Shown piece by piece: positions 4,614 through 31,482 of a stretch of 64,000 bases of DNA. Source of the stretch: Candidatus Campbellbacteria bacterium RIFOXYC2_FULL_35_25 (GTDB taxonomy: Bacteria > Patescibacteriota > Minisyncoccia > Phycocordibacterales > UBA12079); the NCBI GenBank assembly GCA_001774495.1, contig MFAE01000005.1, positions 26,583 through 90,582 of the forward strand. The letters are read 5' to 3'. The notes beneath the pieces are model-generated. The model made no database searches and was not told the origin of the DNA. It saw only the letters and a program-made list of their open reading frames with translations. The number at the start of each line of letters is the position of its first letter. Position 1 is the first letter of the stretch. The translations under genes and the position numbers were made by a program.

Positions 4614-4880
4614 ATGAAAGTATTGCTGCCGCTAGACATCCCTTACGGGAGAACTTGCAAATTTGAAGGAGGAGAAGTTTGCCGACTATTCCTTTGGGGT
4701 CACGAAAATAGTCATTCTTCTTGCCGAGGGTGGAATGGAAGCCAAATTATTGAAAATTTTTTCAAACACCCAGCGTGTTTTGCCTTGCAAGAAAGAGAAA
4801 CGCATTGTTCCTCAGAACACCTGCATTTAGCAACAGGGTCCTGCCCTAGTTGCGATTATGGCAAACCACCCACTCCTTAA
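4614..4880 (+). CDS. hypothetical Cys/His-rich small protein, GC-rich islet
   Basis: 88-aa ORF, AGGGAG SD 8 nt before ATG, elevated GC, followed by GC-rich two-level hairpin element 4881-4930. Confidence 0.35.
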   Translation: MKVLLPLDIPYGRTCKFEGGEVCRLFLWGHENSHSSCRGWNGSQIIENFFKHPACFALQERETHCSSEHLHLATGSCPSCDYGKPPTP

Positions 4881-5000
4881 ATCCGCCCGACGAGAATTCC
4901 CGCTCTCGCTTGGCGGGTTTTCTCATTTTTGGTCAACCCAAAAAAAAAGAAACCCGCTTTGCGTAAACGCAAAGCGGGAGTTCTAGGTAATAAGGACGGC

Positions 5001-5279
5001 TCATCCCGAAGTCAATCCTGTTGCGTCGTAAAGATTCTGAAGGCTTTTTTGGGTTTCTCTCCCGACGACACCGTCAGCCTGCAAATCCGGAGAGGCAAAA
5101 CCCATACCAATGAGTGCATACTGGAAAAGGATTTTACTGTTGCGATGAGGCACATTGTAACGATAGTGCAAGAATATCTCCGCCACAGTGGCCTTGTTGG
5201 GAAGATGCCCCGCTCCTATGCACAAAATTCTCCAACGCTTCTTGATTTCTTCTTGGGACAACTGCTTTTTCTCACACAT
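5001..5279 (-). CDS. hypothetical protein with peptidoglycan-binding-like (PG_binding_1-type) motif DLQADGVVGRETQKSLQNLY
   Basis: 92-aa ORF in GC-rich islet; TGA stop; own hairpin+U-run terminator 4939-4978; overlapping + strand ORF 4929..5306 judged spurious. Confidence 0.4.
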   Translation of the reverse strand: MCEKKQLSQEEIKKRWRILCIGAGHLPNKATVAEIFLHYRYNVPHRNSKILFQYALIGMGFASPDLQADGVVGRETQKSLQNLYDATGLTSG

Positions 5280-5452
5280 CTGAATCCTCCTCTTGGGTTA
5301 AATTGACATCTTTAGTATACGGGCTTTTCTAAAAGTAATAATACTTATTCTGAAAATATAAGCAAGGATCACCAAAAAAACACCAAAAAATAAACGGCTA
5401 AGCTTTAAAAAGCTTAGCCGTTTATTTTTTGATGAATCACATATCTGGTTAT

Positions 5453-5716: not shown

Positions 5717-5906
5717 ATTTTTTAATTATTATAAGTAATACTCATATGCTATCATAAAAACATCTTTTTTTACTTTGAAATCAAAAAACTTGATTTTGAA
5801 TTTATGTTTGGTATCATCAATGGAATATTAACTCTATTTTAAAATAGTTGTTAAAAAGGAAATGCCTGTATAAAAATAGTGAATATTACAGTATAATATC
5901 CAAATT

Positions 5907-5928
5907 GGCCCTATCGTCTAACGGTTAT
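5907..5928 (+). pseudogene. tRNA-Glu 5' fragment (first ~21 nt) with duplicated promoter; part of 43-bp direct repeat
   Basis: attacagtataatatccaaattggccctatcgtctaacggtta occurs at 5886-5928 and again at 6074-6116 where it continues into the intact tRNA. Confidence 0.7.
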
Positions 5929-6094
5929 TGGAATAAAAAAACAAACTGCTTTGTTTTTTATCCAGTTCTGAGTGTAACGAAGAAATTTCCTTTATCGAAC
6001 GAAGTGAGATAGGAAATAGGGTAAGCCTTCGTTGAAGGCGATGTCTGCTTAAGACATATAAAAATAATCAAGATTACAGTATAATATCCAAATT

Positions 6095-6166
6095 GGCCCT
6101 ATCGTCTAACGGTTAGGACATCGCCTTCTCAAGGCGGAAATTCGGGTTCGATTCCCGGTAGGGTCA
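6095..6166 (+). tRNA. tRNA-Glu (anticodon CUC)
   Basis: GGCCCTA acceptor pairs with TAGGGTC (one G-U); Glu-type short D arm TCGTCTAACGGTTAGGACA; anticodon stem TCGCC/GGCGG, loop TTCTCAA (U33, A37); T-loop TTCGATT; close to E. coli tRNA-Glu. Confidence 0.85.
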
Positions 6167-6217
6167 CACCAAAAGTAAATCCGCCTGAATAAGGCAGATT
6201 TACTTTTGGTGTGACCC
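6161..6217. repeat. 57-bp inverted repeat (25-bp arms) that embeds the tRNA-Glu 3' end; likely terminator/processing hairpin
   Basis: gggtcacaccaaaagtaaatccgcc / ggcagatttacttttggtgtgaccc, one G-U-compatible mismatch. Confidence 0.8.
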
Positions 6218-6267
6218 TAAGAAAGCAAACTTCTTTGCTTTCGTCAGGAATCGAACGGCGGAGTATG

Positions 6268-6381
6268 TCGAGCGAAGCGAGACAGCGAGCCGCGTCCAGC
6301 GATACTTAGGATTTTTTAAAACACGAAGTGACTTAAAAAAGACTTAGTGATCGCGGGACGATTCCCTCCTGTAGGGTCACA
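6268..6381. repeat. tRNA-associated repeat modules: GC-rich cgagcgaagcgagacagcgagccgcg module, inverted copy of GTCCCGCGAT(T/C)ACTAAGTCTTTT, and degenerate tRNA 3'-end copy gggacgattccctcctgtagggtcaca (6355-6381)
   Basis: matches 24841-24863 (inverted) and tRNA-Glu 3' end cgattcccggtagggtcaca. Confidence 0.6.
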
Positions 6382-6431
6382 AACAAAAACCTCCCCACAC
6401 TTACGTGTGAGGAGGTTTTTGTTTAAATACC

Positions 6432-24005: not shown

Positions 24006-24251
24006 TTACTTTCTTCCTAACCGTTCAGAAAGATCTCTCCAATAGTTATTTTTTTCCAAGGAAGATTTCCAACTAAATAACTGAACTAAAATGAAACTAG
24101 GGTGAACTCTCATTTCTAATAATTCACCAAGAGAGTGTTCATTAAAACCCGCCTCCTTATTCTTTCTTATCCGCTCCAATTTTTCTCCAGAACCAGGAAC
24201 AGCATTTTTGCATTGAGAGACGAAATCACTCCATTTTTTCTCAGTATCCAT
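24006..24251 (-). CDS. hypothetical protein
   Basis: 81-aa ORF. Confidence 0.35.
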   Translation of the reverse strand: MDTEKKWSDFVSQCKNAVPGSGEKLERIRKNKEAGFNEHSLGELLEMRVHPSFILVQLFSWKSSLEKNNYWRDLSERLGRK

Positions 24252-24355
24252 AATCTTTGCCCTCTTTAGATTTTAGTTTCAAGTAGCAAACAAAGGTTAA
24301 CAAATCTCAGTTTAATATACATAAATATTAAAGAAAAATCAATAAAAATGATTAA

Positions 24356-24384
24356 ACCGCGCCTTTTGAGGGGCGCGGTTTTTG
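24356..24384. terminator. hairpin accgcgcc ttttgagg ggcgcggt + T-run
   Basis: immediately downstream of 24409..24648 on minus strand. Confidence 0.6.
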
Positions 24385-24408
24385 CCACTGATGGTAGCGG
24401 CGAAACTG

Positions 24409-24648
24409 TTATTGGGAATGTCCCCTTCGTCCGATACTCCTGAAAAAAGAAAACGCCTGAGCGAGGATTCCTGGCCGATGAATAATAGTCTCGGTGACAA
24501 CCTGAGTGGCCCGAGGAACCACAGTACGATGAACTTGCCGTCGTGACGGCCGATGTTTTCTCCGAGATGATTTTTGGGGGATTCCCCACGAAGGAAATCT
24601 CCGTCCATTTCTCTGCTCAGAACTCATTGTTTTCCGACTCGCAACCAT
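24409..24648 (-). CDS. hypothetical very basic (Arg/Lys/His-rich) 79-aa protein, GC ~53%, cargo of tRNA-Phe-associated island
   Basis: strong SD cGGAGGaatatcATG; three overlapping minus-frame ORFs typical of high GC; terminator 24356-24384. Confidence 0.4.
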   Translation of the reverse strand: MVASRKTMSSEQRNGRRFPSWGIPQKSSRRKHRPSRRQVHRTVVPRATQVVTETIIHRPGILAQAFSFFRSIGRRGHSQ

Positions 24649-24749
24649 GATATTCCTCCGTGTCTGAATGGATAAAATGATACTTCCTGCGATATTTATA
24701 CACTATTAGTGGTTATTTGTCAAGGAGTTTTAAATGGCTCTTTTATACG

Positions 24750-24930
24750 GGCTCGTCTCGCGGTTACTAATTTAAAACGGGCTTCGGTCACAAATCACTA
24801 AGTATATTTTTCGCGCTTCGCAACTGCTTAGGGGCGGGTCGTCCCGCGATTACTAAGTCTTTTATTTATTCAAGACTAGTAAAAAGGACTCGGTCACGAA
24901 TCACTAACTTTTTTATTCGTCCTCCGGACT
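24750..24930. repeat. cluster of short direct repeats (T/C)ACTAA units: CGCGGTTACTAA, GGTCACAAATCACTAAG, CCCGCGATTACTAAGTC, CGGTCACGAATCACTAAC; shared with tRNA-Gly and tRNA-Glu loci
   Basis: 24891-24927 ~85% identical to 26425-26460; 24841-24863 matches 6339-6360 inverted. Confidence 0.7.
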
Positions 24931-25040
24931 CCAAAAAACTAAGTGTTCGCGACCCCGCCTCACTCGTCGTGCTCGCTATCGCTCCGCGCGACATCGTTCC
25001 GGCTTCCGAGCCCGCACACAAAGTCCTCAAGGACTTTGCT

Positions 25041-25104
25041 CCCTCGACACAGCAAAAGAAAAAAGACGAATAAATTCGTCTTTTTTCTTTTGCTGTGTCG
25101 AGGG
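25041..25104. repeat. 64-bp perfect palindrome (30-bp arms, loop taaa) whose right arm continues into the partial tRNA-Phe 3' copy
   Basis: ccctcgacacagcaaaagaaaaaagacgaa taaa ttcgtcttttttcttttgctgtgtcgaggg. Confidence 0.85.
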
Positions 25105-25148
25105 GCGGGCTCGGACCGCCGACCCTTCGCTCTTCAGGCGAATGCTCT
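25095..25148 (-). pseudogene. partial tRNA-Phe copy (3' 54 nt: acceptor 3' strand, T arm, anticodon arm, D-stem 3' strand), att-like direct repeat of intact gene
   Basis: 54/54 identity with 25289-25342 then divergence. Confidence 0.8.
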
Positions 25149-25290
25149 CCCTCCTATTGCCTGCTCGCCCTTCGGGACTCGCTTCGGCAATTTTTTGCTT
25201 CGCAAAAACCAGATAAAAAGCTTAAACGCTTTTTATCCAACTGAGCAACGCTCAGTTGCTAGAGCATTAATAAATTTAGTTTATACAGTG

Positions 25291-25363
25291 TGTCGAGGGG
25301 CGGGCTCGGACCGCCGACCCTTCGCTCTTCAGGCGAATGCTCTACCAACTGAGCTACCTCGAC
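25291..25363 (-). tRNA. tRNA-Phe (anticodon GAA)
   Basis: GTCGAGG/CCTCGAC acceptor, D arm TAGCTCAGTTGGTAGAGC, anticodon stem TTCGC/GCGAA loop CTGAAGA, T stem GGCGG/CCGCC with unusual T-loop TCCGAGC. Confidence 0.85.
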
Positions 25364-25494
25364 ATATATTTTATATTTTATGAGAAAACTACCTTTAACA
25401 TCAATTCATTATTAAAGATGCCCCATATTAACATTTTATAAGAAATTACGCATCAAAAAGGACATTTTATAATCTTAAAACTACTAAGAAAAAA

Positions 25495-26404: not shown

Positions 26405-26631
26405 TCATGGGTAGGGAGGAGAATCGGTCACGAATCACTAAGCCTTTTGTTCGTCCTCCGCTCGATCATTAGTTTATTGTAGGGAGAATCGCCTTCCAGT
26501 TCTAAGTTCAGCCTTCGCCCTTCGGGACTCGTCTTCACTAAGAACTCGCAGGCCCGTCGCTCGTATTTTTCTTTCGCTTCACTACAGAAAAATATACTTC
26601 GCTCTTTCCGATTCTCCCTACCCGCTACAAA
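26405..26631. repeat. tRNA-Gly-associated mosaic: two direct partial copies of the tRNA-Gly 3' end (26409-26427, 26478-26493), one inverted copy (26607-26625), CGGTCACGAATCACTAAG module (26425-26460) and TCGCCCTTCGGGACTCG module (26515-26531, also at 25165-25181)
   Basis: direct sequence comparison with tRNA-Gly 26675-26745 and tRNA-Phe locus. Confidence 0.75.
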
Positions 26632-26674
26632 AATAAACAAAAACAGAGCTATTCGCTCTGATTTTGTATTTTTG

Positions 26675-26745
26675 TGCGGGTAGGGAGAATCGGACTCCCG
26701 TCTCATCCTTGGGAAGGACGTGTCATACCACTAAACTATACCCGC
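26675..26745 (-). tRNA. tRNA-Gly (anticodon CCC)
   Basis: GCGGGTA/TACCCGC acceptor, anticodon stem CGTCC/GGATG loop TTCCCAA, T stem GGGAG/CTCCC with T-loop TCCGATT. Confidence 0.8.
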
Positions 26746-27187: not shown

Positions 27188-27519
27188 TGGAGTAATTATA
27201 AAATTAATATTTCCTAAAGTCTATAAAACATTAGAAATAACTTTTGACTTTATAAGCTTTTAACATTAAACTGTGTGTATGTTATTTAATCCAAAACATA
27301 AAAAGAAAATTAAAGTATTTTGGGGAGTTATGGGGGCTCTACTTATCGTAAGTATGATACTTCTTTACATGCCTATTCTTTTTTAATTCTTTAGAAGTCA
27401 AAAAGACAAAAATGGTCGTTTCTAAGGATTCGGCTTTTTTTATTGCATATCCTTTGGTTTATATGTAAGATACTAAATAGATTTGTTCTAGTAAAAACAC
27501 TCACATATGGAGGCGAAAG

Positions 27520-27963
27520 ATGAGCACAATAAAGATTTTTTTTAACCAAGACTGTTTTCCTGCGGAACTCTGTCAACAAACCAGCGAGGTCAAGCAATTG
27601 CTCTCCAAAGCGGAAGGACTCTTGAGGGAGATCCAAATCAAAACCAACAAAATTCAGGAGGAATGCACTCACGAGCCAGGCAATTTCAAAAAAATCTGTG
27701 TTGATTCCAGCGACAACCTGGAAATCATGGAAGATCTTTTTTTAAGAAAAAATGGTTGGGTCTGGGTTGGAACCCAGTGCCCGAAATGCAAAAAAATCTC
27801 CTCGAGACCATCTTATGACCCCAAGGTTGAGTGTGAAAAATGTGGCGGAAAAATGAAGGATCGATGCCTTGGTTTGCGGGCAAACGTCCTAGCTCATGTC
27901 TTCCAGTGCGAAGTCTGCGACCATGAATTCGTCGAGGATTTAATGAAAAAGAGACTTCTTTAA
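27520..27963 (+). CDS. hypothetical Cys-rich protein with two zinc-ribbon knuckle pairs (CPKC...CEKC; C...CEVC)
   Basis: 147 aa, SD GGAGGCGAAAGATG, elevated GC; operon with next ORF. Confidence 0.5.
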   Translation: MSTIKIFFNQDCFPAELCQQTSEVKQLLSKAEGLLREIQIKTNKIQEECTHEPGNFKKICVDSSDNLEIMEDLFLRKNGWVWVGTQCPKCKKISSRPSYDPKVECEKCGGKMKDRCLGLRANVLAHVFQCEVCDHEFVEDLMKKRLL

Positions 27964-27998
27964 CCGACAGGACTCATCCAAAAAAGGAGGCTAATAAG

Positions 27999-28223
27999 AT
28001 GAAAGATTGTGTCGTTGAAAATAGCAAGACTATTCACAAATGTGGAGAGCCGAGAATCCATACATTTGATAATCTTGTGCAATCCCACCCTAGTATCGTG
28101 GGGAAAACTGTCCCAATTAAGGCCGAAATATATCCTTGCCAGGAGGTAGGTTTTGTTAAGGCGGGGCACGCCGGACAAGAATCTGCCCTAAGATTTACAA
28201 ACCGAATGCGGCCTCCTCAATAA
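27999..28223 (+). CDS. hypothetical protein
   Basis: 74 aa, strong SD AAGGAGG 8 nt upstream; terminator hairpin 28261-28286. Confidence 0.4.
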   Translation: MKDCVVENSKTIHKCGEPRIHTFDNLVQSHPSIVGKTVPIKAEIYPCQEVGFVKAGHAGQESALRFTNRMRPPQ

Positions 28224-28254
28224 GGGAAGGCATAAAATCTGTCTTCCCACTTCC

Positions 28255-28293
28255 TAAAAAGGTTTAGCAACAGTTGTTGCTAAACCTTTTTTT
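28255..28293. terminator. hairpin ggtttagcaacagttgttgctaaacc + T-run
   Basis: between convergent 27999..28223 and leuS. Confidence 0.7.
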
Positions 28294-28326
28294 ACTTACT
28301 ACTTGATACTTGCTACTTATTACTTA

Positions 28327-30927: not shown

Positions 30928-31482
30928 CTACTTAGTTAAACCAAAAACTTCTTTTAACCACTCTTCGTTTTCTATTCTATTTACTTCCATATACAAAACA
31001 TCTTCATCAGCAAAAAAATTTGTTTTAAGTAGAAAAATAAGCTCTTCACACTCATAAGGAAGAACCCATACACTATTTTGTAATTTAATAAACCCTAATC
31101 TATCTAAATTATGACGAAGTAATTCTCGAAGTCTCTTTTTTTTCTCTGGAATATCAAAAATAATAACTCTCCATTTTTTATCCCAATTCTTTGGCTTTTC
31201 TATTTCTATTTCTTCTAATTCATATTGGGAAATCATTTCCCTACCCTTTTTTGTAAGTTCTATAAATTCAACACTGCCTTTTTTTACTTTTTTTATTAAA
31301 CCTTTCTTTAATAGTGTTTTTACAGAATTATTCATATAATATTTTTCTTTCGACCAACCCTTCTTTTTTGGTAAAAACATTTTTAAAGATTGCAAAGCAT
31401 TTGGAGCTAAAACAGCCATACCAACCAAGCCGGTAATCGCTATTGTGGATAAAATTATTTTTTGATAATTTATATTTTTCAT
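30928..31482 (-). CDS. membrane-anchored wHTH + Cas2/VapD/PaaX_C-like (ferredoxin-fold) domain protein; orphan, no cas1 or CRISPR array
   Basis: N-terminal TM; LKKGLIKKVKKGSVEFIELTKKGREM wHTH-like; WRVIIFDIPEKKKRLRELLRHNLDRLGFIKLQNSVWVLP resembles Cas2 core (RVLVFFDLP...GF.MLQ.SV). Confidence 0.6.
   Translation of the reverse strand: MKNINYQKIILSTIAITGLVGMAVLAPNALQSLKMFLPKKKGWSKEKYYMNNSVKTLLKKGLIKKVKKGSVEFIELTKKGREMISQYELEEIEIEKPKNWDKKWRVIIFDIPEKKKRLRELLRHNLDRLGFIKLQNSVWVLPYECEELIFLLKTNFFADEDVLYMEVNRIENEEWLKEVFGLTK

What the first reader, a model, noticed from the sequence alone, without database searches (positions are those of the whole stretch)
24266..25380. tRNA-Phe locus carries integration-scar architecture and a GC-rich cargo gene for a highly basic 79-aa protein
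Downstream of the intact minus-strand tRNA-Phe (25291-25363) there is a 54-nt perfect direct copy of its 3' portion at 25095-25148. This is an att-like duplication. That copy is fused into a 64-bp perfect palindrome (25041-25104, 30-bp arms). Further degenerate tRNA-Phe pieces lie nearby in both orientations, including the D-loop GCTCAGTTGG in hairpin 25232-25254 and an inverted 3' end at 24995-25020. Next comes a cluster of (T/C)ACTAA direct repeats (24750-24930). Then comes a ~53% GC segment in a ~1/3-GC genome encoding 24409..24648. That ORF has a strong SD (GGAGG-6nt-ATG), a 79-aa product with about 24% Arg/Lys/His, and its own terminator. No integrase gene is present, so this looks like a remnant or satellite-type insertion at a tRNA. 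The basic protein could be a nucleic-acid-binding cargo.
Basis: seen in the sequence. Interest (0 to 1): 0.7.

Follow-up and report, generated by a model that had tools for sequence, protein, structure and literature searches.

The report
Structured repeat elements behind tRNA genes
The "integration scar" behind this tRNA-Phe gene is one copy of a widespread family of small folded DNA elements, which I could not find described anywhere, that sit behind tRNA and tmRNA genes of Patescibacteria and carry copies of the host tRNA's own 3' end; the supposed protein "cargo gene" is an orphan reading frame with no relatives.

Summary
They are not an integrase scar with a protein cargo.

The repeats, the palindrome and the "ACTAA" motifs belong to a conserved element of about 130-200 nt. 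Its order is: intact tRNA, terminator-like palindrome, inverted copy of the tRNA 3' end (X'), conserved three-way-junction core, direct copy of the tRNA from T-loop C56 to C74 (X2).
- The window holds three loci: Phe, Glu and Gly.
- An 18-mer of the core occurs in more than 120 Patescibacteria genome stretches.
- A covariance model finds about 190 copies, behind tRNAs of 19 amino-acid identities and behind tmRNA genes.
- All 25 model base pairs covary.
- Copies behind different tRNAs in one genome share the hairpin and core but carry tRNA-specific arms.
- Syntenic relatives differ in copy number.
- A second family of about 90 nt sits in D-loops of partial tRNA copies.
- No recombinase gene is nearby, no Rfam family matches, and I found no paper describing it.

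The 79-aa ORF has no homolog, and its segment is absent from the closest syntenic relative.

Best reading: a non-autonomous mobile fold-back element that probably acts as folded single-stranded DNA. How it moves is not known.

The parts
25291..25363 (-). Intact tRNA-Phe(GAA), the host gene
   Evidence: ARAGORN; Rfam tRNA 67.3 bits
25290..25308 (-). X1: tRNA positions C56-C74 (CGAGCCCGCCCCTCGACAC), the segment that the elements copy in direct and inverted form
   Evidence: String search. The same 19-mer recurs at 25095-25113.
25250..25268 (-). Inverted copy of the tRNA-Phe D-arm / anticodon-stem region (AATGCTCTAGCAACTGAGC)
   Evidence: the repeat finder pair I2, 95% complementary to 25336-25354
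25237..25247 (-). D-arm 5' fragment (TGCTCAGTTGG) of a truncated second tRNA-Phe copy, ending at G19
25150..25236 (-). Type-2 element (about 87 nt, three hairpins, ends in AATAGGAGG), inserted in the D-loop of the truncated tRNA-Phe copy
   Evidence: Homologous copies in L108, L151, L152, L179, L084 and the window Glu locus. Its third hairpin shows compensatory changes: TTGCC/GGCAA, TTTCC/GGAAA, TCGCC/GGCGA.
25094..25151 (-). 58-nt copy of the tRNA-Phe 3' part (D-stem 3' strand to C74 plus 1 nt). ARAGORN's second 'tRNA-Phe' call (25095-25169) rests on this piece and lacks a 5' acceptor strand.
   Evidence: (23.3 bits, below the gathering score)
25041..25104 (.). S: perfect 31-nt-arm palindrome (A-tract, stem-loop, T-tract, terminator-like). 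Its outer arms are the tRNA 3' end (CCCTCGACACA) and the inverted copy of that end (first part of X').
   Evidence: The same design occurs in 74 of 93 units elsewhere.
25006..25040 (-). Small inserted hairpin (25040->25016) followed by the second part of X' (GCGGGCTCGG, reverse complement of T-loop and T-stem 3' strand)
   Evidence: family consensus
24879..25018 (-). Type-1 unit. Its sub-features are P2 (AAGCC / GGC), internal loop plus hairpin P3 (24995->24963), GGGG, P4 (GGTCGCGAACACT / AGTGATTCGTGACC), hairpin P5 (24938->24908), the P4 3' strand TTAGTGATTCGTGAC (24907->24893), and a degenerate X2 (CGAGTCC, 24892->24886).
   Evidence: R1 covariance model, 96.7 bits, E 3e-26; structure and covariation; coordinates
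24748..24881 (-). Three partial 3'-half modules. Each has a P5-like hairpin, a TTAGTRAT... P4 3' strand and a fragment of the tRNA-Phe T-loop/T-stem.
   Evidence: (partial hit 24863->24789)
24694..24723 (-). Promoter-like site, TTGACA-17 nt-TATAAAT. The TTGACA lies in what looks like a decayed tRNA-Phe 3' end (CCTCGACA to CCTTGACA).
   Evidence: Read from sequence. Compare L151, which has CCCGCCCCTTGACAC at the same place. The scan tool missed the site because its -10 rule requires T at position 6.
24354..24693 (-). Lineage-specific GC-rich segment that holds the orphan 79-aa ORF (24409-24648) and ends in an intrinsic terminator (24381-24354). It is not part of the element family and its function is unknown.
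   Evidence: No homologs; no Pfam or Rfam match; fold no more stable than shuffles, z = -1.4; absent from L151-L230
5885..6421 (+). tRNA-Glu(CTC) locus with the same design. Its parts are a 43-nt direct repeat of promoter plus tRNA 1-21 (5885-5927 = 6073-6115), a type-2 element (about 5928-6021), tRNA-Glu (6095-6167), the S palindrome (6160-6218), a small hairpin, a type-1 unit with compensatory P4 variant (6242-6372), X2 (ending at 6381), and a terminator (6385-6421).
   Evidence: (82.3 bits)
26409..26745 (-). tRNA-Gly(CCC) locus. Its parts are the tRNA (26745->26675), an imperfect S palindrome (26673->26628), X' (26627->26608), a decayed type-1 unit (26620->26478), and a further partial module CTTAGTGATTCGTGAC+CGATTCTCC..CCCTACCC (26442->26409).
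   Evidence: (23.6 bits, E 8e-5, not in the seed alignment)

Best explanation
The 24748-25290 stretch is a stack of small non-autonomous repeat elements that colonise tRNA genes in Patescibacteria.

**Type-1 unit (about 130-200 nt).** It lies directly behind an intact tRNA or tmRNA gene, in this order:
- a terminator-like palindrome (S);
- an inverted copy of the host tRNA 3' end (X');
- a conserved core;
- a direct copy of the host tRNA from T-loop C56 to C74 (X2).

X' pairs with X2. Together with the two core arms (P2/P3 and P4/P5) this gives a three-way junction.

**Type-2 element (about 90 nt).** It sits after G19 in the D-loop of partial tRNA copies that lie beside the intact gene.

**Shown by the analysis**
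- the architecture itself;
- covariation of the structure;
- the tie to tRNA and tmRNA 3' ends;
- arms that match the local tRNA;
- near-identical S and core behind different tRNAs within one genome;
- differences in presence and copy number between relatives;
- decayed and nested copies.

**Inferred**
- The elements are selfish and are mobilised in trans by an enzyme that has not been identified.
- They act as a folded single strand of the tRNA-sense strand, more likely DNA than RNA.
- On insertion at or next to the T-loop TT|CGA site, the tRNA 3' end is re-copied by fold-back (snap-back) synthesis at the downstream hairpin. The tRNA therefore stays intact.

**Side effects at this locus.** The element provides the terminator behind the tRNA. 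A decayed tRNA-end remnant supplies a -35-like TTGACA.

The GC-rich segment with the 79-aa ORF is a separate, lineage-specific insertion and most likely does not code for a protein.
For: **Spread**
- It has no exact match in viral contigs.
- Model R1 finds nothing in the 20 viral candidates recovered with shorter patterns.

**Position**
- 103 of 126 model hits have a same-strand tRNA ending within 450 nt upstream, with a median gap of 68 nt.
- 98 of 155 tRNAs in those loci carry a unit, covering 19 amino-acid identities.
- Eight of the hits with no upstream tRNA lie about 50-100 nt behind tmRNA genes.

**Structure**
- RNAalifold predicts 25 pairs, 15 of them with compensatory changes.
- On 150 hits, 94.5% of cells are paired against 73.7% in shuffles and 30-43% in slid controls.
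- There are 692 double-sided changes against about 200 in shuffles, and all 25 pairs covary.
- The Glu unit in the window and the L017 unit carry compensatory P4 variants.

**Target-derived arms**
- X2 matches its own tRNA at 14.2 of 19 positions, against 9.3 of 19 for other tRNAs. 29 of 73 units match at 17 or more positions.

**Recent movement**
- In assembly CAYZIR01, the units behind tRNA-Phe and tRNA-Val share S (44 of 46 nt) and the core. X1, X' and X2 differ with the tRNA.
- A tRNA-Gly unit in another genome has an S identical over 45 aligned nt apart from a one-base gap.

**Polymorphism**
- tRNA-Arg(CCT) is empty in the window and occupied in L017.
- L155 has a full unit plus a partial one. 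The near-identical L156 has only a footprint.
- L151, L152 and the window differ in module number.
- A type-2 element is nested inside a type-1 P4 in L108.

**Single-strand signature**
- Triloops make up 117 of 266 apical loops in the variable hairpins. C(GNA)G loops number 49, GNRA 4 and UNCG 0.
- CGAAG occurs 66 times against 1 for its reverse complement.
- G-U pairs number 81 against 47 A-C.
- 74 of 93 units have a terminator-like hairpin plus T-run between the tRNA and the core, against 59 of 400 background windows.
Against: - No mobilising enzyme was found. There is no recurrent transposase, integrase or RT ORF in the 120 loci, and none among the 49 window ORFs scanned against Pfam.
- No excised form or truly naive empty site was seen. 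L156 keeps half of the S hairpin, so it is more likely a deletion product.
- How an internal segment (X') comes to match each new host tRNA is unexplained. The fold-back step is my inference.
- An 18-mer that is identical across more than 120 species would also fit a host-selected function.
- The ssDNA-versus-RNA call rests on loop statistics and on published knowledge of d(GCGAAGC) mini-hairpins, not on any experiment.
- The G-U excess is modest.
- The loci were chosen by the motif, so occupancy figures are biased upward.
Confidence: 0.55

Rival explanations
1. The X'-core-X2 unit is a host-selected non-coding RNA. It would be a mimic of the tRNA acceptor/T-arm minihelix with a large conserved insertion in place of the T-loop. 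It could be processed by RNase P, RNase Z or the CCA-adding enzyme, and could act in tRNA-related regulation, quality control or as a decoy, with one unit for each cognate tRNA.
For: - Strong covariation and an 18-mer that does not vary across more than 120 species.
- Stem A reproduces the acceptor and T stems of the cognate tRNA.
- In L084 the core sits directly in the T-loop of a full-length tRNA-Glu copy, like an intron.
- The structure favours the tRNA-sense strand: G-U 81 against A-C 47.
- A terminator-like site follows X2 in 29% of units against 15% in background windows.
Against: - Only about 63% of the sampled tRNAs carry a unit, and orthologous tRNAs differ between relatives.
- Tandem, truncated and nested copies are common.
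- 80% of units are separated from the tRNA promoter by a terminator-like hairpin, and I saw no promoter of their own.
- The loops are DNA-type GNA triloops rather than the GNRA or UNCG loops usual in RNA.
- No Rfam family matches.
Confidence: 0.22
2. The locus would be the remnant of a classical integrase-mediated genomic island or satellite that integrated into tRNA-Phe. The duplicated tRNA 3' end would be attL/attR, and the GC-rich 79-aa ORF would be surviving cargo encoding a basic nucleic-acid-binding protein.
For: - A direct repeat of the tRNA 3' portion starts inside the tRNA, as at att sites.
- tRNA and tmRNA genes are the classic integrase targets (established knowledge; tmRNA association).
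- The GC-rich segment has promoter-like, SD-like and terminator signals.
- That segment is an indel relative to L151.
Against: - The same core follows 19 tRNA identities and tmRNA genes, whereas one integrase normally serves one site.
- The units are 130-200 nt, and no integrase lies near any of about 190 copies.
- An inverted copy of the target and a covarying three-way junction are not att features.
- The ORF has no homolog in two exhaustive searches, and the alternative 89-aa frame also has none.
- Two overlapping ORFs in the other two frames of the same strand are open over it.
Confidence: 0.08
3. The direct-inverted-direct copies of tRNA pieces are passive mutational scars. They would come from fold-back template switching at highly transcribed, hairpin-rich tRNA genes, with no element that moves. 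On this view the core is simply an old scar inherited vertically.
For: - The whole unit can be read as a zig-zag of direct and inverted T-arm-like pieces. The P2 and P4 strands resemble T-stem and T-loop halves, with hairpin apices at each turn (read from the sequences).
- In L155 the inverted copy starts exactly at a hairpin.
Against: - One conserved core sequence occurs behind unrelated tRNAs and behind tmRNA.
- It is almost identical behind different tRNAs of one genome, and between genomes.
- Independent scars would not share an 18-mer across more than 120 species, and they would not keep compensatory pairs.
Confidence: 0.1

Closest known systems
Genomic islands and prophages integrated by tyrosine integrases into the T-loop-to-3'-end segment of tRNA and tmRNA genes (the sublocation classes of Williams 2002; cited from my own knowledge)
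   Same: They sit at the 3' end of tRNA and tmRNA genes. A direct repeat starts in the T-loop and runs to the end of the gene. The tRNA stays intact.
   Different: The elements here are 130-200 nt and have no integrase. One core family serves at least 19 tRNA identities. An additional inverted copy of the target is present. The core is a covarying three-way junction. Tandem and partial arrays are common.
REP/REPIN elements with RAYT transposases, and the PATE derivatives of IS200/IS605 (single-strand, hairpin-dependent HUH transposition; from my own knowledge)
   Same: They are short, GC-rich, non-autonomous, multi-copy and intergenic. Their hairpin structure is strand-specific and conserved. 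Mobilisation in trans is plausible.
   Different: REPINs and PATEs do not carry arms copied from the target and are not tied to tRNA ends. No Y1/HUH gene was found near any copy. The core sequences show no match in Rfam.
Folded single-strand recombination substrates: integron attC sites and the CTX-phi attP hairpin (from my own knowledge)
   Same: A folded single strand rebuilds a duplex copy of the chromosomal target. Here, stem A (X':X2) equals the duplex of the tRNA 3' end. After insertion, the target site and an inverted copy of it lie at one end.
   Different: No IntI or Xer involvement is shown. There is no R/L-box consensus. The core sequence is highly conserved here, whereas attC conserves only its structure.
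Introns in tRNA genes: group I introns of Patescibacteria at position 35/36 (bioRxiv 10.1101/2025.07.03.662931) and mobile archaeal introns at non-canonical loop positions (from my own knowledge)
   Same: They are insertions into tRNA loops in the same phylum. One copy here (L084) has the core directly inside the T-loop of a full-length tRNA copy.
   Different: The functional tRNA copy here is uninterrupted. The interrupted copies are decayed. There is no match to intron models in Rfam, and the units are too small for group I introns. The insertion points are G19 and C56, not the anticodon loop.
tRNA-like minihelix RNAs such as the tmRNA tRNA-like domain (from my own knowledge)
   Same: An acceptor stem plus T stem helix carries a large insertion.
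   Different: No T-loop is retained. There is no evidence of expression. Copies are polymorphic and often decayed.

Membership tests
Integrase-type att scar / integrated island at a tRNA | Direct repeat of the tRNA 3' portion flanking the inserted DNA | tested here: met
   The 58-nt repeat 25094-25151 / 25289-25346. X1 and X2 19-mers occur family-wide.
Integrase-type att scar / integrated island at a tRNA | A site-specific recombinase gene in or next to the element, or a larger parent element that carries one | tested here: not met
   None among the 49 window ORFs scanned against Pfam across the 64 kb. No recurrent recombinase ORF in 120 loci. No copies in viral contigs.
Integrase-type att scar / integrated island at a tRNA | Specificity of one element family for one tRNA gene, or very few | tested here: not met
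   The same core follows tRNAs of 19 amino-acid identities and tmRNA genes.
Protein-coding cargo gene (79-aa basic protein) | Conservation of the protein in relatives, or any detectable homolog | tested here: not met
   Only the sequence itself among 5.8 billion and 1.84 billion proteins. No Pfam match. Absent from 80 related loci.
Protein-coding cargo gene (79-aa basic protein) | Coding signature that distinguishes this frame from the other frames | tested here: inconclusive
   ORFs of 79, 89 and 107 aa in the three frames of the same strand overlap one another. GC by codon position is 0.54/0.56/0.40, against 0.46/0.33/0.32 for LeuRS. No population variants fall inside the ORF.
Protein-coding cargo gene (79-aa basic protein) | Evidence of translation | not testable with these tools
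   No ribosome-profiling or proteome data are available here.
Known structured RNA family (Rfam 15) | Match to a curated covariance model | tested here: not met
   Only tRNAs reach the gathering score. Nothing relevant appears up to E = 10 in 24200-25450.
MITE-like non-autonomous transposable element | Short, multi-copy, no coding capacity | tested here: met
   Units of 95-223 nt; about 190 model hits in about 1 Mb of loci; three loci in the window.
MITE-like non-autonomous transposable element | Element-borne terminal inverted repeats and a short, fixed-length target-site duplication | tested here: inconclusive
   Inverted arms exist (X'/X2), but they are copied from the host tRNA and are not carried by the element. 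The direct repeat is 19 nt, C56-C74.
MITE-like non-autonomous transposable element | An autonomous partner that shares the ends | tested here: not met
Whole genomes were not searched.
tRNA intron (group I or bulge-helix-bulge type) | Interrupts the only functional gene copy and is removed to give a mature tRNA | tested here: not met
   The intact tRNA is uninterrupted. Interrupted copies lack stems, as in L084 copy 2 and the truncated Phe copy.
Single-strand (HUH or folded-hairpin recombination) mobile DNA | Strand-specific conserved hairpins with DNA-type loops | tested here: met
   C(GNA)G 49, GNRA 4, UNCG 0; CGAAG 66 against CTTCG 1.
Single-strand (HUH or folded-hairpin recombination) mobile DNA | A cognate HUH or tyrosine enzyme, and single-stranded intermediates | not testable with these tools
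   This needs whole-genome phyletic profiling and biochemistry.

The most novel reading that the evidence does not exclude
These could be a new class of mobile genetic element that targets the tRNA elbow. Type 2 inserts after G19 and type 1 before C56, and these two bases form a tertiary pair in folded tRNA. On this reading the element recognises a folded single-stranded tRNA or tDNA and rewrites part of itself (X' and X2) from each new target by fold-back copying. A less likely alternative is that each unit is a cognate tRNA-minihelix RNA with a cellular role in Patescibacteria.
Probability: 0.3. Interest if true: 0.9.

Novelty: new variant of a known kind. Interest (0 to 1): 0.72.

Why it matters
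**For annotation**
- These elements explain GC-rich "islands", false second tRNA calls and contig breaks next to tRNA genes in Patescibacteria assemblies.
- In one search, about eight of the ten contigs shown stop inside or at the edge of this locus.
- Three of the five tRNA genes in this window carry one.

**For biology**
- It is a very widespread, sequence-conserved, structured element with no known enzyme and no entry in Rfam.
- I found no description of it in six full-text searches.
- It keeps an essential tRNA intact while inserting at its T-loop boundary.
- It carries both a direct and an inverted copy of its target. Known transposons and integrative elements do not do this, so an unrecognised insertion or copying mechanism is likely.
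- The elements also supply terminators, and occasionally promoter-like sequence, to neighbouring genes in very small genomes.

**Practical point**
- A conserved core whose arms are defined by the target is the kind of design that has led to programmable recombination tools in other systems.

Tried and rejected
**Hypotheses rejected**
- **The GC-rich 330 nt is a housekeeping RNA** (RNase P, tmRNA, SRP or 6S). Rfam gives no hit at gathering score or up to E = 10, ARAGORN finds no tmRNA, and the fold z-score is only -1.4.
- **ORF-less group II intron inserted after the terminator hairpin.** There are no Rfam intron hits and no domain-V-like sequence.
- **T-loop intron whose removal rebuilds a tRNA.** A brute-force in silico splice test only recovered the upstream intact tRNA joined to X2. 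No 5' exon abuts the core directly. The single exception, L084 copy 2, is decayed.
- **Known self-cleaving ribozyme cores or a kink-turn.** I compared these by eye from memory and found no convincing match. This was not tested further.

**Searches that found nothing**
- **Phage or plasmid origin.** The motif has no exact match in IMG/VR, and model R1 finds nothing in 20 candidate viral loci.
- **Associated protein.** Clustering 1,215 ORFs from the 120 loci gave only housekeeping neighbours.
- **GC-rich segment as a gene fragment from elsewhere.** Two frames gave no homolog.
- **Literature.** Six searches returned only a paper on group I introns at position 35/36.

**Not settled**
- **A naive empty site at tRNA-Phe.** L156 looked empty but keeps half of the S hairpin. 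It probably arose by deletion between direct repeats.
Full report
**1. The observation**

The window is a low-GC (about 34%) chromosomal region. It belongs to Candidatus Campbellbacteria bacterium RIFOXYC2_FULL_35_25, a groundwater member of the Patescibacteria. Its genes are core housekeeping genes such as DnaE, DnaB, RecR, LepA, Mur ligases, PBPs, MraW/MraZ, SMC and ScpAB, RNase R and several aminoacyl-tRNA synthetases. No integrase, transposase or reverse transcriptase was found among the 49 ORFs scanned against Pfam.

- tRNA-Phe(GAA) is intact at 25363->25291.
- A 58-nt copy of its 3' part lies at 25094-25151, with one mismatch.
- A perfect palindrome with 31-nt arms lies at 25041-25104.
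- Inverted and direct D-arm pieces lie at 25250-25268 and 25237-25247.
- An inverted T-arm piece lies at 25006-25015.
- The ACTAA repeats are present.
- A segment of about 51% GC holds the ORF 24409-24648(-), which has an SD-like GGAGG and a terminator.

**2. The repeats belong to a family**

The sequence behind tRNA-Gly(CCC) at 26410-26674 shares exact motifs with the Phe locus: TTAGTGATTCGTGACCGA and GAGTCCCGAAGGGCGA. The sequence around tRNA-Glu(CTC) at 5885-6421 shares the architecture, with a compensatory variant of the core motif. The 18-mer has no exact match in viral contigs.

In those loci an intact same-strand tRNA of almost any identity ends about 150-210 nt upstream of the motif. 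Reading about 60 of them gives this consensus:
- the tRNA, whose last 19 nt (C56 to C74) I call X1;
- a terminator-like palindrome, S;
- X', the reverse complement of the tRNA 3' end, often split by a small hairpin;
- AAA;
- P2, with an internal loop and a variable hairpin P3;
- GG;
- P4, GGUCGMGAACACU paired with AGUGAUUCGUGACC, whose last C is tRNA C56;
- a variable hairpin P5;
- X2, a direct copy of C56-C74.

X' pairs with X2, so the unit folds as a three-way junction.

**3. Statistics**

*Structure.* A 33-sequence alignment (A2) gives an RNAalifold structure of 25 pairs, 15 of them with compensatory changes. I built covariance model R1 from it.

In the window R1 scores as follows:

| Locus | Coordinates | Bits | Note |
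|---|---|---|---|
| Phe unit | 25018->24879 | 96.7 | in the seed alignment |
| Glu unit | 6242-6372 | 82.3 | in the seed alignment |
| Gly unit | 26620->26478 | 23.6 (E 8e-5) | decayed, not in the seed |

*Copy number.* R1 gives 161 hits in 703 kb of loci L011-L110 and 35 more in L111-L130. It finds none in 20 viral candidates.

*Covariation.* On 150 hits:
- 94.5% of cells pair, against 73.7% in shuffles and 30-43% when partners are slid;
- there are 692 double-sided changes against about 200 in shuffles;
- all 25 pairs covary.

That alignment is fitted to the model, which favours the structure. The slid controls and the independent MAFFT/RNAalifold result point the same way.

*Position.*
- 103 of 126 hits have a same-strand tRNA within 450 nt upstream, with a median gap of 68 nt.
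- 98 of 155 tRNAs in these motif-selected loci carry a unit, covering 19 amino-acid identities.
- Eight of the hits without a tRNA lie about 50-100 nt behind tmRNA genes, which also end in a T-arm and an acceptor strand.

*Arms.* X2 matches its own tRNA at 14.2 of 19 positions against 9.3 of 19 for other tRNAs. X' shows the same trend more weakly.

**4. Evidence that the units move or turn over**

- In assembly CAYZIR01, the units behind tRNA-Phe (L052) and tRNA-Val (L061) share S at 44 of 46 positions and nearly the same core. X1, X' and X2 follow the local tRNA. A tRNA-Gly unit from another genome (L114) has an S identical over 45 aligned nt apart from a one-base gap.
- tRNA-Arg(CCT) has only a plain terminator in the window. 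In L017 it has a full unit with identical 19-nt X1 and X2.
- I anchored on the neighbouring YqeY gene and obtained 80 related loci. Among the syntenic ones:
  - L151 has the window's Phe architecture but fewer modules.
  - L152 has one simple unit.
  - L155 has a full unit and a partial one.
  - L156, which has near-identical flanks, has only the tRNA plus half of S, most simply a deletion between direct repeats.
- Decayed, truncated and tandem copies are common. Examples are the three partial modules at 24748-24881 and the Gly locus.

That is not what is seen.

**5. A second family**

The 87 nt at 25150-25236 form another structured element, type 2. It has three hairpins, and the third shows compensatory changes. 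It has homologs in L108, L151, L152, L179, L084 and the window Glu locus. In seven of the eight copies found it lies after G19 of a partial tRNA copy next to the intact gene.

On the 5' side of tRNA-Glu, the direct repeat that flanks it is 43 nt long and includes the -10 box.

In L108, the eighth copy is inserted into the T-loop-like GGGG|CGAGAAC of a type-1 P4. In L084, a full-length but decayed tRNA-Glu copy carries type 2 in its D-loop and a type-1 core directly in its T-loop.

The two insertion points, after G19 and before C56, are the partners of the G19:C56 elbow pair of folded tRNA. That is established tRNA structure. Any link to the insertion mechanism is my inference.

**6. DNA or RNA?**

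- In the variable hairpins, triloops dominate (117 of 266 loops). C(GNA)G loops number 49, GNRA 4 and UNCG 0.
- CGAAG occurs 66 times against once for its reverse complement, and GCGAAGC occurs 29 times.
- From my own knowledge, d(GCGAAGC) and GNA triloops are the classic very stable DNA mini-hairpins, whereas structured RNAs favour GNRA and UNCG loops.
- 80% of units are separated from the tRNA by a terminator-like hairpin plus T-run, against 15% of background windows. I saw no promoter of their own.
- G-U pairs outnumber A-C pairs 81 to 47.

I therefore favour a folded single strand of DNA, the tRNA-sense strand. This is an inference and not a demonstration.

**7. Mechanism**

*Shown.* The target-derived direct repeat runs from C56 (the TT|CGA position of the T-loop) to C74. 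An inverted copy of the same segment joins the downstream hairpin S to the core.

*Inferred.* In L155 the inverted copy begins exactly at a small hairpin. This suggests fold-back copying from that hairpin back to the T-loop. The unit as a whole reads as a zig-zag of direct and inverted T-arm-like pieces.

*Unknown.* I could not identify the enzyme. I also could not see how X' is rewritten for a new tRNA. Folded-hairpin recombination (as with CTX-phi or integron attC), HUH-type single-strand transposition, and retro-type snap-back synthesis all remain possible.

**8. The GC-rich segment and the 79-aa ORF**

- The minus strand carries TTGACA-17 nt-TATAAAT at 24723-24694. The TTGACA lies in what looks like a decayed tRNA-Phe 3' end.
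- A terminator lies at 24381-24354. A transcript of about 335 nt is therefore plausible.
- The 79-aa ORF has no homolog other than itself in two exhaustive searches, and the overlapping 89-aa frame has none either.
- There is no Pfam or Rfam match.
- The fold is not unusually stable.
- Three same-strand ORFs, one in each frame, overlap across it.
- The segment is absent from all 80 related loci. L151 among them keeps a 47%-identical homolog of the neighbouring 81-aa gene.

It is a lineage-specific insertion of unknown origin. I put the chance that it encodes a real protein at about 15%.

**9. Comparison with known systems, and novelty**

The closest known systems are tRNA/tmRNA-targeting integrative elements, REPIN/PATE-type hairpin repeats, folded single-strand recombination sites and tRNA introns. 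Each shares some features with these elements, and each fails on at least one defining feature (see the membership table). Rfam 15 has no matching family. Six full-text searches found no description; the only related paper concerns group I introns at position 35/36.

I file the finding as a new variant of a known kind, namely small non-autonomous structured repeat elements. It has a real chance of being something further from known types.

**10. Verdict**

The interest lies in the element family and not in the ORF.

Noticed in passing
L001:1-140 (= window 25218->25149 joined to 25343->...): A 19.5-kb contig from another sample starts with the end of the type-2 insert, then the 58-nt repeat, then the start of the same insert. 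This implies either an extra tandem copy of the 195-nt [insert + repeat] unit or a circular junction in that population. The assembly used k = 141, which is longer than the repeat.
   Followed up: partly
L005:1-158, and the contig ends of L001, L003, L004, L006-L008 and L010 within window 24649-25343: Contigs from several samples break inside the element array. L005 switches exactly at TTAGTGATTCGTGACCGA into sequence that looks like a unit behind tRNA-Gly(TCC). This is either an assembly chimera or recombination between units. L010 shows different synteny downstream of the 81-aa gene, leading into a tRNA-Gly(TCC).
   Followed up: partly
window 24006-24251 (-): The word-index protein search returned only the query itself for the 81-aa ORF next to the locus. 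Even so, it has a 47%-identical homolog in the same position in L151. It is therefore probably a real, fast-evolving small gene.
   Followed up: yes
window 25095-25169 (-): ARAGORN calls a second tRNA-Phe here. It consists of the 58-nt 3' copy plus the end of the type-2 element, has no 5' acceptor strand, and scores 23.3 bits in Rfam (gathering score 29). It is a false or pseudo tRNA call of a kind likely to recur in Patescibacteria annotations.
   Followed up: yes
window 27500-28300: This is another GC-rich stretch (about 45%). It holds a 147-aa ORF with four CxxC-type motifs (27520-27963, +) and a 74-aa ORF. Neither has a significant Pfam match. No element motif was seen there.
   Followed up: no
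window 4801-5306: A stretch of about 50% GC upstream of the tRNA-Glu locus carries a 125-aa TTG-start ORF with no Pfam match. I did not examine whether it relates to the elements.
   Followed up: no
L041:3415-3542: A LOOT RNA (Rfam RF03000, 79 bits) lies in one of the Patescibacteria loci fetched for the motif. It is unrelated to the element.
   Followed up: no
L084:500-1480 (-) and L108:6460-6880 (+): These loci hold tandem arrays of two or three partial or decayed copies of tRNA-Glu or tRNA-Lys upstream of the intact gene. Each copy carries a D-loop insertion and an inverted anticodon-arm piece. tRNA loci in these genomes appear to be hotspots of partial gene duplication.
   Followed up: partly
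window 30928-31482 (-): A 184-aa protein with a PaaX central Cas2-like domain (PF20803, E 2e-19) lies about 5.5 kb from the tRNA cluster. No link to the elements is known.
   Followed up: no
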